In this document: one piece after another, positions 34,069-34,869 of the stretch | How positions within the stretch are numbered: position 1 is the stretch's first letter | Layout of the letters: every line of letters starts with the position of its first letter | Source: a virus | Taxonomy: Duplodnaviria; Caudoviricetes | Length of the DNA: 64,000 nt | IMG/VR virus record: IMGVR_UViG_3300023218_000062 | Direction: 5' to 3' (one strand) | Notes under the pieces: model-generated | The model's database searches: none | What the model saw: only the letters and a program-made list of their open reading frames with translations | What the model was told of the DNA's origin: nothing | Translations under genes and position numbers: made by a program

Positions 34069-34144
34069 TGGCAGGTGTGCAAGGATTTGAACCCTGACCA
34101 AGAAATTTGGAGTTTCCTATGCTGCCATATTACACCACACACCT
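34069..34144 (-). tRNA. tRNA-Trp(CCA)
   Basis: AGGTGTG/CACACCT, CT-CCA-AA, G73, CCA. Confidence 0.92.
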
Positions 34145-34154
34145 ACAATTAATA

Positions 34155-34230
34155 TTCTTGGAAAGTTGAAAAGCTGTTTAGTTGAGTAACCGTCAATTGT
34201 CATAGAAGGATGCTTTTCTATGGCCAAGAA
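34155..34230 (-). ncRNA. Y-RNA-like stem-loop, copy B
   Basis: TTCTTGG-CC-ATA-GAAAAGC-ATCCTTCTA...GCTTTTC-AACTTT-CCAAGAA. Confidence 0.65.
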
Positions 34231-34239
34231 ATTTTAAAA

Positions 34240-34316
34240 TGGTTGCGAGGGCGGGACTTGAACCCGCACATAGAAGGTTATGAGCCTCTCAATCTACCAG
34301 TTGATATTACCTCGCG
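34240..34316 (-). tRNA. tRNA-fMet-like (CAT)
   Basis: C1:A72 mismatch, CT-CAT-AA loop; anticodon stem lacks the full three G-C pairs. Confidence 0.85.
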
Positions 34317-34349
34317 TCCGTATAACTATTTATCATTAAATTAAAAAAC

Positions 34350-34510
34350 AGGTAATTTAAACGGAATTTAAAAAGCTTTTTAAATTCCGTTGCTCTACCA
34401 ATTGAGCTACCAGCGAACCAAAATTCATTATTCATAAACTCTTTGGTTCGCTGGGCAGGACTCGAACCTGCAACCCACGGTTGGCATATTATTTTTTATG
34501 GCCGGTAATT
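34350..34510 (-). ncRNA. Y-RNA-like copy D containing a circularly permuted tRNA (YrlA-like architecture)
   Basis: 3' tRNA half with T arm and ACCA (34444-34480) lies upstream of the 5' half with D arm (34387-34416); 13-bp closed acceptor stem; no anticodon loop. Confidence 0.7.
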
Positions 34511-34522
34511 TTTATTTATCTT

Positions 34523-34551
34523 ATCTTATTATGATTCTTTCATGTTGTCAA
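34523..34551 (-). promoter_or_regulatory. sigma70-type promoter driving copy D, fMet, copy B, Trp and His
   Basis: TTGACA-17 nt-TAAGAT. Confidence 0.7.
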
Positions 34552-34629
34552 GTATTTTCTGTTTCTTTCTTGGTAAAATATTTCTTTATTATTGGATTCT
34601 TATCAACAATGTCTTCCATATGAAGCTTC

Positions 34630-34869
34630 CTATTTTGTGATATGTTTTACTGCTCACATCACTGCTTCTTCAATTTTGGTTTTAGCTAGTGATAATTCTC
34701 TAGAGCTACCAACCATATTAATAAGATTATGGAACTCTAAACCGGCATCTTTAATACCCTTCATGAGTTGTTTTTCTTCATCAGAAAGAACTCTGTATTC
34801 ATGACGCATAATATTATTAGTGGTTCTTTCATCTTGCGTAGAATCAATTATTTCATTATCTTTAAACAT
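34630..34869 (-). CDS. acb2: Acb2/Vs.4-like cyclic-nucleotide sponge, with an in-frame TGA at the conserved Trp
   Basis: YRVLSDEEKQLMKGIKD...RELSLAKTKIEEAVM*AVKHITK; AGGA SD before ATG 34869; TGA 34654-34656. Confidence 0.7.

What the first reader, a model, noticed from the sequence alone, without database searches (positions are those of the whole stretch)
34069..34869. Acb2-like anti-CBASS gene with UGA at its conserved Trp, close to a tRNA-Trp with suppressor-like features
Seen: the gene reads ...KTKIEEAVM-TGA-AVKHITK-TAG, where Acb2/Vs.4 homologs have EAxMWA. The tRNA-Trp ~500 nt downstream has U11-A24 (the Hirsh UGA-suppressor configuration, also natural in some tRNA-Trp) and a weak G27:U43 top pair. 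Other in-frame UGAs at Trp-compatible positions occur at 27803 (HIV*GRTP) and 25343 (DA*NV). Inference: either read-through tunes an anti-defence sponge, or these are simple TGG>TGA decay.
Basis: partly seen in the sequence, partly recalled or inferred. Interest (0 to 1): 0.62.

Follow-up and report, generated by a model that had tools for sequence, protein, structure and literature searches.

The report
Acb2 sponge gene with premature stop
An uncultured giant phage carries an anti-CBASS "sponge" gene (Acb2 family) in which the invariant tryptophan codon has become a UGA stop; this is most likely an ordinary recent knock-out or knock-down mutation of a kind already known for this gene family, not a programmed recoding signal.

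Summary
The sequence statements hold. The minus-strand gene 34869..34654 is a clear Acb2/Vs.4-family gene (Pfam PF24729, E 1.7e-20; Vs.4/Acb2 are the best fold matches). TGA sits exactly at one of the family's four invariant columns (Trp72). Seven intact tail codons, identical to the family consensus (AVKHITK), follow, then TAG.

The TGA is real. It appears in assemblies from four samples, including two variant strains.

It is not conserved. Of 158 related loci, 154 have TGG, and only copies of this same phage have TGA. All three jumbo-phage relatives examined encode Trp there.

The phage uses the standard code: 22 of 71 long genes end in TGA, and 249 TGG codons are intact.

The tRNA-Trp(CCA) does have U11-A24 and G27·U43. 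But A24 is shared by a relative whose gene has TGG, and the gene lies in the tRNA cluster in relatives too.

The other (25343) has no support. A neighbouring gene carries a CAG>TAG change plus a frameshift, so lesions are not restricted to UGA.

Best reading: a recent transition nonsense allele that removes ligand-contact and interface residues, as in phage PaMx41 and in T4 mutants that escape Panoptes. Background UGA>Trp leak is possible but unproven. The same stretch was also noted in another reading of this genome (e1-5341780).

The parts
34654..34869 (-). Acb2/Vs.4-family sponge gene as it reads under code 11: 71 codons plus the TGA stop. An AAGAGGA Shine-Dalgarno sequence precedes the ATG at 34869.
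   Evidence: Pfam PF24729 at E 1.7e-20. Model of two helices, 30-53 and 57-78, pLDDT above 90. The top 9 PDB fold hits are all Vs.4 7UQ2 and Acb2 8H2X/8H2J.
34654..34656 (-). TGA at the family's invariant Trp column (Trp72); the next base (+4) is G.
   Evidence: Trp72 is one of 4 invariant columns in a 50-sequence diverse alignment. 154 of 158 related loci have TGG. The relatives L168 and L173 have TGG.
34630..34653 (-). Seven intact tail codons (AVKHITK) and TAG. They are in frame with the gene and identical to the family consensus.
   Evidence: Against L168 the tail shows 3 synonymous and 0 non-synonymous differences.
34069..34144 (-). tRNA-Trp(CCA) with U11-A24, G27-U43 and an AU-rich anticodon stem; CCA end is encoded.
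   Evidence: Comparison with the relatives' tRNA-Trp.
34896..34983 (-). tRNA-Ser(GGA) upstream of the sponge gene. This order is conserved in the relatives L168 and L173.
27626..28003 (-). Small Zn-ribbon-like gene frame with a second TGA (27805..27803) where the sister phage's protein P0274 has Trp.
36391..36726 (-). Remnant of a 166-aa gene that is intact in relative L168. It carries CAG>TAG at 36642..36640 and a 2-nt insertion upstream. Strain L005 has one further 1-nt insertion.
25238..25429 (-). 64-codon frame with TGA at 25345..25343. There is no evidence that it is a gene spanning the stop.

Best explanation
This is an Acb2/Vs.4-family cyclic-nucleotide sponge gene that sits inside the tRNA cluster of an uncultured T4-like jumbo phage. 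It has suffered a single G>A transition (TGG>TGA) at its invariant Trp72 codon.

Under the phage's standard genetic code the main product is a 71-residue protein that lacks the last third of helix 2 (WAVKHITK). By alignment to T4 Vs.4, that segment holds a hexamer-interface residue (A77), a phosphate-binding basic residue (R79) and the base-stacking position (F82). The truncated protein is therefore probably inactive or badly weakened as a sponge (inferred).

The lesion is young, or the allele is mildly leaky. Nothing else in the gene has decayed.

UGA is the stop most often misread, and the near-cognate tRNA-Trp would insert the original residue (established knowledge, not shown here). A small fraction of exact wild-type protein may therefore still be made.

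Loss or reduction of Acb2 has a known selective rationale. Sponge-sensing defences such as Panoptes select acb2 loss-of-function mutants, and at least one wild phage (PaMx41) carries a premature stop in acb2.

The lesion belongs to a wider pattern of erosion among small accessory genes in this phage. It is not a recoding system.
For: Family membership:
- Pfam PF24729, E 1.7e-20, profile positions 2-58 of 58 when read through.
- Fold hits to 7UQ2 and 8H2X/8H2J.
- The ligand Tyr and Lys are conserved: Y25 and K40 match Vs.4 Y8 and K23.

Standard code:
- 22 of 71 long ORFs end in TGA.
- 249 TGG codons are intact.
- Reading TGA as sense opens no more frames than reading TAA or TAG as sense.

TGA is not conserved:
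- 154 TGG against 4 TGA among related loci, and all 4 TGA are this same phage.
- All 119 other listed homologues keep the Trp and the conserved tail, as do all but 2 of 150 cluster representatives, and those 2 diverge before that point.
- The jumbo relatives L168 (81% aa) and L173 (76%) have TGG. The sister protein P0002 (89%) has W.

No relaxed constraint elsewhere in the gene:
- 3 lineage-specific residue changes in the window against 4 in the sister.
- All invariant residues are kept.

The truncation removes functional residues:
- The mapping comes plus the Vs.4 mutational data in PMC10097602.
- The F82C escaper comes from PMC12657218.

Precedent:
- T4 Panoptes escapers carry acb2 premature stops, and PaMx41 has a natural premature stop (PMC12657218).

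Other decay close by, of other lesion types:
- CAG>TAG plus a 2-nt insertion in the 36391-36726 remnant, and a further 1-nt insertion in strain L005.
- A second TGG>TGA at 27803.
- Two TGG>TGA among three nonsense lesions is not unusual (P about 0.15).
Against: The seven tail codons are untouched and match the consensus exactly. The TGA is fixed in every copy found, including strains that differ by 1-1.4% in flanking DNA. Both facts would also fit a maintained read-through allele. The 2.9-kb block around the gene is nearly invariant among strains, so neither fact dates the lesion.

Two of the three nonsense lesions seen are at Trp codons and are UGA.

The phage's own tRNA-Trp combines A24 with a weak G-U top pair and an AU-rich anticodon stem. 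In E. coli genetics those features push tRNA-Trp(CCA) toward UGA reading (PMC13092985).

Confidence: 0.65

Rival explanations
1. Selected (tuned) read-through. The UGA is kept because near-cognate decoding by tRNA-Trp(CCA), helped by the phage's own A24 / G27-U43 tRNA, yields a low, set dose of full-length sponge. That dose would be enough to blunt CBASS-type signalling while staying below the trigger level of sponge-sensing defences.
For: - The tail is intact and identical to the consensus.
- The TGA is fixed in all sampled copies.
- A second Trp>TGA lies in the same window.
- The tRNA features are confirmed. A24 (Hirsh) and unpairing of the 27-43 pair raise UGA reading in E. coli (PMC13092985).
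- Panoptes gives a reason to lower the sponge dose.
Against: - No relative keeps the TGA.
- A24 is also present in a relative whose gene has TGG, and it is common in nature.
- G27-U43 is still a base pair.
- TGA ends 22 of 71 genes in the window, so an efficient suppressor would extend many proteins.
- A TAG nonsense change and frameshifts in neighbouring genes show plain decay.
- The gene's place in the tRNA cluster is ancestral.
Confidence: 0.13
2. The 71-residue protein is itself the working product. On this reading the last eight residues are dispensable, or the shorter form has a changed ligand range.
For: - The N-terminal ligand residues Y25 and K40 and most of the hairpin remain.
- The allele is fixed in the population.
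Against: - Trp72 is invariant and the tail is nearly invariant across about 270 homologues.
- The Vs.4 equivalents A77, R79 and F82 are needed for assembly or binding, and F82C abolishes function.
- A third of helix 2 is lost.
Confidence: 0.1
3. Alternative genetic code (TGA read as Trp genome-wide or in a gene class), or selenocysteine insertion.
For: The TGA aligns with Trp in two genes.
Against: - TGA is a frequent genuine stop.
- 249 TGG codons remain unchanged.
- No tRNA with a UCA anticodon is among the 11 ARAGORN and 2 extra Rfam tRNAs of the window.
- The Rfam tRNA-Sec hits are tRNA-Ser below threshold.
- The position is Trp, not Cys or Sec, in all homologues.
Confidence: 0.02
4. Sequencing or assembly error.
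For: None.
Against: The same TGA appears in assemblies from four samples, including two variant strains.
Confidence: 0.01

Closest known systems
T4 Vs.4 / Acb2 (PDB 7UQ2) and Pseudomonas phage PaMx33 Acb2 (8H2J, 8H2X): hexameric sponges for cyclic di- and trinucleotides
   Same: Same Pfam family (PF24729) and the same helical-hairpin fold. The Tyr and Lys ligand residues are conserved, and so is the K-T-K-x-E-A-x-M-W-A motif of the last helix.
   Different: Sequence identity is only 21-26%. This clade has its own conserved N-terminal NNVMRHEY motif. Here the Trp codon is TGA, so the code-11 product stops before the residues equivalent to Vs.4 W76-F82.
Natural and selected acb2 loss-of-function alleles: the PaMx41 premature stop and T4 Panoptes escapers (PMC12657218)
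   Same: A premature stop in acb2 in a wild phage. The C-terminal ligand-contact region is hit, as in escaper F82C.
   Different: The stop here lies only 8 codons from the end and is a UGA at a Trp codon, the mildest conceivable nonsense change. Neither the host nor any defence system that might drive it is known.
tRNA-Trp(CCA) variants that read UGA: the Hirsh G24A suppressor and tRNA-Trp with a 4-bp anticodon stem (PMC13092985)
   Same: The phage tRNA-Trp has A24 paired with U11, and the weakest possible standard pair (G-U) at 27-43.
   Different: 27-43 is still paired, so the anticodon stem has 5 bp. A24 occurs in the TGG-bearing relative too. No read-through has been measured.
Programmed UGA read-through genes (Q-beta coat/A1) and TGA>Trp recoded phages (Borges et al., crAss-like and jumbo gut phages)
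   Same: An in-frame UGA is followed by an open, meaningful extension.
   Different: In those systems the stop and the extension are conserved among relatives, or TGA is sense in many genes and a tRNA(UCA) is present. None of this holds here.

Membership tests
Acb2/Vs.4 sponge family (Pfam PF24729 Acb2_Tad1_hairpin) | Significant match to the family profile | tested here: met
   73.4 bits against a cutoff of 27, E 1.7e-20, profile positions 2-58 of 58 for the read-through form. The database also lists PF24729 for the 71-aa form.
Acb2/Vs.4 sponge family (Pfam PF24729 Acb2_Tad1_hairpin) | Two-helix hairpin fold like Vs.4 and Acb2 | tested here: met
   AlphaFold model with helices 30-53 and 57-78 at pLDDT 94-98. 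The top 9 Foldseek PDB hits are 7UQ2 and 8H2X/8H2J, probability 0.99-1.00, TM 0.57-0.63. The Foldseek E-values are weak (0.08-0.35) because the protein is short.
Acb2/Vs.4 sponge family (Pfam PF24729 Acb2_Tad1_hairpin) | Ligand-contact Tyr and Lys of helix 1 (Vs.4 Y8 and K23; Acb2 Y11 and K26) | tested here: met
   Y25 and K40 align to them and are conserved across the homologues: both invariant in the 20-sequence alignment; in the 50-sequence one K40 is invariant and Y25 nearly so.
Acb2/Vs.4 sponge family (Pfam PF24729 Acb2_Tad1_hairpin) | Complete C-terminal helix carrying the interface and ligand residues (Vs.4 A77, R79, F82) | tested here: not met
   Under code 11 the product ends at M71. 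The residues are encoded intact after the TGA.
Acb2/Vs.4 sponge family (Pfam PF24729 Acb2_Tad1_hairpin) | Hexamer that binds cyclic oligonucleotides | not testable with these tools
   Needs purified protein (SEC-MALS, ITC).
Stop-codon-recoded phage (TGA read as Trp) | TGA rarely or never used as a stop; many genes open only with TGA read as sense | tested here: not met
   22 of 71 long ORFs end in TGA. 80% of the window is covered by ORFs of 100 codons or more under code 11. 249 TGG codons are intact.
Stop-codon-recoded phage (TGA read as Trp) | Suppressor tRNA with a UCA anticodon | tested here: inconclusive
   None was found in the 64-kb window. The rest of the roughly 246-kb genome is not held.
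Programmed read-through gene | The stop codon and the extension are conserved among relatives | tested here: not met
   The extension is conserved but the stop is not: 154 TGG against 4 TGA, and the 4 TGA are all the same phage.
UGA-reading tRNA-Trp(CCA) (Hirsh type or 4-bp anticodon stem) | A24 opposite U11 | tested here: met
   It is also met by the tRNA-Trp of the TGG-bearing relative L168.
UGA-reading tRNA-Trp(CCA) (Hirsh type or 4-bp anticodon stem) | Unpaired 27-43, giving a 4-bp anticodon stem | tested here: not met
   G27-U43 is a wobble pair, so the stem has 5 bp. It is AU-rich, with one G-C pair.
UGA-reading tRNA-Trp(CCA) (Hirsh type or 4-bp anticodon stem) | Measured rise in UGA read-through | not testable with these tools
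   Needs a reporter assay.

The most novel reading that the evidence does not exclude
The phage deliberately keeps its sponge gene behind a leaky UGA. Its own tRNA-Trp (A24, weak 27-43 pair, AU-rich anticodon stem) raises UGA>Trp decoding during infection. A small, timed dose of full-length Acb2 is then made, enough to soak up CBASS signals without tripping sponge-sensing defences of the Panoptes type. The second Trp>UGA gene at 27803 would be under the same control.
Probability: 0.1. Interest if true: 0.7.

Novelty: new member of a known kind. Interest (0 to 1): 0.27.

Why it matters
As it stands, the finding adds a wild example to a known pattern: phages lose or cripple acb2, and sponge-sensing immunity (Panoptes) explains why that can pay. 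It also shows that the Acb2 family's C-terminal Trp and tail are almost invariant in the roughly 270 homologues inspected, out of about 970 clusters found.

It would matter more if read-through were shown. A phage-encoded tRNA that sets the dose of an anti-defence protein through a leaky stop would be a new link between phage tRNA clusters and the defence/counter-defence arms race.

The case is also a caution. A UGA at a conserved Trp with an intact tail is what a fresh G>A hit looks like, so conservation of the stop among relatives is the test that counts.

Tried and rejected
- **Reads.** No TGG/TGA polymorphism or expression could be checked.
- **Whole genome.** It is not held. The contigs behind L004 and L005 cannot be searched. 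A tRNA(UCA), a release-factor gene or a second Acb2 copy elsewhere in the genome could therefore not be looked for. There is no paralogue within the window.
- **Sister phage DNA.** The 270,653-bp contig that carries P0002 and P0274 could not be fetched. IMG/VR likewise returned nothing closer. The age of the TGA could therefore not be polarised at the nucleotide level.
- **Strain variants.** L005 and L006 were hoped to date the lesion. Their differences cluster outside 33545-35131, so they carry no information on this.
- **Known phages.** A megablast of the region against deposited phage genomes found nothing.
- **The 25343 TGA.** There is no Pfam, PHROG or phage hit. The only database hit is a same-strain ORF that ends at that TGA. 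It is rejected as evidence.
- **Selenocysteine.** Rejected. The Rfam tRNA-Sec matches are sub-threshold hits on tRNA-Ser genes, and the position is Trp in all homologues.
- **The TTG-started 99-aa ORF (34654..34953).** Rejected as the gene, because it overlaps tRNA-Ser(GGA).

Full report
**1. What is in the sequence**

On the minus strand an ATG at 34869, preceded by AAGAGGA, opens a 71-codon frame. It ends in TGA at 34656..34654. The frame then continues GCA GTA AAA CAT ATC ACA AAA TAG, so the reading is ...KTKIEEAVM*AVKHITK*.

ARAGORN places tRNA-Trp(CCA) at 34144..34069, which is 510 nt downstream. tRNA-Ser(GGA) lies at 34983..34896, directly upstream of the gene.

I numbered the tRNA-Trp by hand.
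- The D stem is G10-U25, U11-A24, G12-C23, U13-G22.
- The anticodon stem is G27-U43, G28-C42, A29-U41, A30-U40, A31-U39.

**2. What the gene is**

Read through the TGA, the 79-residue product (P0001) matches Pfam PF24729 (Acb2/Tad1 hairpin) at E 1.7e-20 over profile positions 2-58 of 58.

A profile built from homologues finds Acb2 homolog 43 (9PTQ), PaMx33 Acb2 (8H2J, 8IXZ) and T4 Vs.4 (7UQ2) in the PDB. An AlphaFold model built from 50 diverse homologues gives two helices, 30-53 and 57-78, at pLDDT 94-98. Its nine best PDB fold matches are all Vs.4 or Acb2 chains.

The helix-1 ligand residues are present. Y25 and K40 align with Vs.4 Y8 and K23.

The family is large: 4147 proteins at 90% clustering and 973 cluster representatives at 50%.

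**3. How conserved the Trp and the tail are**

In a 50-sequence diverse alignment only four columns are invariant: L28, K40, A62 and W72.

All 119 other listed close homologues keep the Trp followed by [AG][VI]KH[ILV]T-x, and they stop there. Among 150 representatives at 50% clustering, all but two keep [MF]-W. The two exceptions diverge before that point.

At the DNA level I inspected 158 related loci that carry the motif. Of these, 154 have TGG and 4 have TGA, and all 4 are copies of this same phage.

Three jumbo-phage relatives were examined.
- The sister protein P0002 (89% identity, from a 270,653-bp contig) has W.
- L168-L172 (81% identity) have TGG.
- L173 (76% identity, from a 242,149-bp contig) has TGG.

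The UGA is therefore private to one phage lineage.

**4. Is the TGA real, and how old is it**

The 71-aa product is on record on 7 contigs. The four places fetched come from four samples (three JGI metagenomes and one SRA run) and share identical DNA over 341 nt.

Two of those contigs are variant strains, 98.6% and 99.0% identical over 6.2 and 2.8 kb. Their differences cluster at 31680-33544 and beyond 35132. The block around the gene is almost invariant. The TGA is therefore fixed in the sampled population, but its age cannot be read from these data.

Against L168 the seven tail codons show 3 synonymous and no non-synonymous differences. This shows past purifying selection on the tail. It does not show whether selection continued after the stop arose.

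The window's protein has 3 lineage-specific residue changes against 4 in the sister, so there is no sign of relaxed constraint. Both a young lesion and a maintained allele fit these facts.

**5. Genetic code**

TGA is an ordinary stop in this phage.
- 22 of 71 long ORFs end in TGA.
- Code 11 gives 80% coverage of the window by ORFs of 100 codons or more. Reading TGA as sense opens no more frames than reading TAG or TAA as sense.
- 249 TGG codons are intact in the long genes.
- No tRNA with a UCA anticodon is in the window.

Genome-wide or class-wide recoding is excluded for this window.

**6. The tRNA-Trp**

U11-A24 is the configuration of the Hirsh suppressor. However, the tRNA-Trp of relative L168, whose sponge gene has TGG, has U11-A24 as well.

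In a survey of 42,109 bacterial genomes, 2,414 of the 3,438 tRNA-Trp(CCA) genes with a 4-bp anticodon stem carry A9C and/or G24A. A24 is thus common in nature (PMC13092985).

The same paper shows that unpairing 27-43 (C27A) raised expression across one UGA about 2.5-fold in E. coli when the tRNA was overexpressed. Here 27-43 is a G-U wobble, so the stem still has five pairs. It is notably AU-rich compared with the relative's stem, which has A27-U43 and three G-C pairs.

The tRNA's nearness to the gene is not special. The sponge gene follows tRNA-Ser(GGA) inside the tRNA cluster in L168 and L173 as well.

The tRNA features are real. They are compatible with somewhat raised UGA misreading, but they are not tied to the TGA.

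**7. What the truncation removes**

The alignment has a one-residue offset between the PDB chain index and the paper's numbering. I checked this offset on Y8, H11, K23, A66, A73 and S74. With it, the mapping of Vs.4 residues to this protein is as follows.

| T4 Vs.4 | This protein |
|---|---|
| W76 | W72 |
| A77 | A73 |
| R79 | K75 |
| F82 | T78 |

In Vs.4, A77 lies in the hexamer interface and A77I abolishes function. R79 makes hydrogen bonds or salt bridges with cGAMP. F82 stacks on the base, and mutants at F82 fail (PMC10097602). F82C is a Panoptes escaper with reduced binding (PMC12657218).

The 71-aa product lacks all of these positions and a third of helix 2. I therefore infer that it is inactive or strongly weakened. 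This was not tested.

**8. The other UGAs and the neighbourhood**

The frame 28003..27626 (P0122) has a TGA at 27805..27803. Its single homologue in the 5.8-billion-protein set is P0274, from the same sister contig. P0274 aligns at 89% identity without gaps and has Trp exactly at that position. This is a second genuine Trp>UGA difference.

The window also seems to lack the sister's start codon in frame. Without the sister DNA this cannot be settled.

The frame at 25429..25238 (TGA at 25345..25343) has no support. The only hit is a same-strain ORF that ends at that TGA.

A third small gene provides a control. The orthologue of L168's 166-aa protein survives in the window only as a remnant. It has CAG>TAG at 36642..36640 and a 2-nt insertion upstream, and strain L005 has an extra 1-nt insertion further on.

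Small accessory genes of this phage are therefore eroding through several kinds of lesion, not only UGA. I did not re-test it.

By codon counts, TGG>TGA makes up about 25% of transition routes to a stop. Two such events among three nonsense lesions has P about 0.15.

**9. Mechanism I commit to**

I read this as a single G>A transition that turned the invariant Trp codon of an Acb2-family sponge gene into UGA in one jumbo-phage lineage (confidence 0.65).
- The main product is a truncated, probably inactive protein.
- The allele is young or mildly leaky, because nothing else in the gene has decayed.
- UGA>Trp near-cognate misreading would regenerate the exact wild-type protein at a low level. 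This makes TGG>TGA the mildest kind of nonsense change and helps such alleles persist. That step rests on established knowledge of UGA leakiness and was not shown here.
- Loss or reduction of Acb2 has a documented advantage where hosts carry sponge-sensing systems (Panoptes), and a wild precedent exists in PaMx41.

Rivals:
- Selected, tRNA-assisted read-through that tunes the sponge dose (0.13).
- A functional truncated protein (0.10).
- Recoding or selenocysteine (0.02).
- Sequencing or assembly error (0.01).

**10. Novelty and score**

The gene is a new member of a well-described family. A premature stop in acb2 is a known phenomenon. The read-through idea remains a speculation whose computable predictions failed, because the stop is not conserved and the tRNA features are not specific. 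Interest is modest at 0.27.

The most novel reading still open is dose-setting of an anti-defence sponge by a leaky stop and a phage tRNA. I give it a probability of about 0.1. It would deserve about 0.7 if true.

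Noticed in passing
window 34365-34499 (-): Rfam YrlA (Y RNA-like) match over the whole model: 50.4 bits, below the gathering score of 69, E 2e-10. It has a tRNA-like T-arm/D-arm core and a 32-nt insert, and lies 130 nt downstream of the sponge gene. The surrounding stretch 34088-34557 is 77.5% identical to relative L168. Other first-stage notes of this scan cover it (e1-5341766, e1-5341767).
   Followed up: partly
window 34243-34316 (-) and 35581-35654 (-): Two tRNA-like genes found by the Rfam tRNA model (43.5 and 42 bits) that ARAGORN did not call. 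The first has several non-standard pairs in the acceptor and D stems.
   Followed up: no
window 36391-36726 (-): Pseudogene remnant of a 166-aa protein that is intact in relative L168. It has CAG>TAG at 36642..36640 plus a 2-nt insertion in an A run. Strain L005 adds a 1-nt insertion near 36445.
   Followed up: yes
window 27626-28003 (-): Small gene with a C-terminal CxxC...CxxC (zinc-ribbon-like) end. Its only known homologue is in the sister phage, and it is interrupted by TGA at the sister's Trp. The sister's start codon appears to be out of frame in the window.
   Followed up: partly
window 33222-33491 (-): 89-aa protein with a near-threshold match to Pfam Lar_restr_allev (26 bits, cutoff 28.6). 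It is possibly another anti-defence gene in the tRNA cluster, near the sponge gene.
   Followed up: no
window 31680-33544 compared with L005 and L006: Strain differences (about 2.5% locally) are concentrated in the glycosyltransferase/TOD1_MUCI70 genes, while the adjacent 2.9-kb tRNA/sponge block is invariant. This looks like a recombination mosaic among strains.
   Followed up: partly
L168 3845-4189: Relative L168 has a 114-aa gene between tRNA-Ser(GGA) and the sponge gene. The window has no counterpart to it, so gene content in this cluster is fluid.
   Followed up: no
window 26754-27491 (-): Phage-encoded NADPH-dependent FMN reductase-like protein (PF03358, E 5.5e-13).
   Followed up: no
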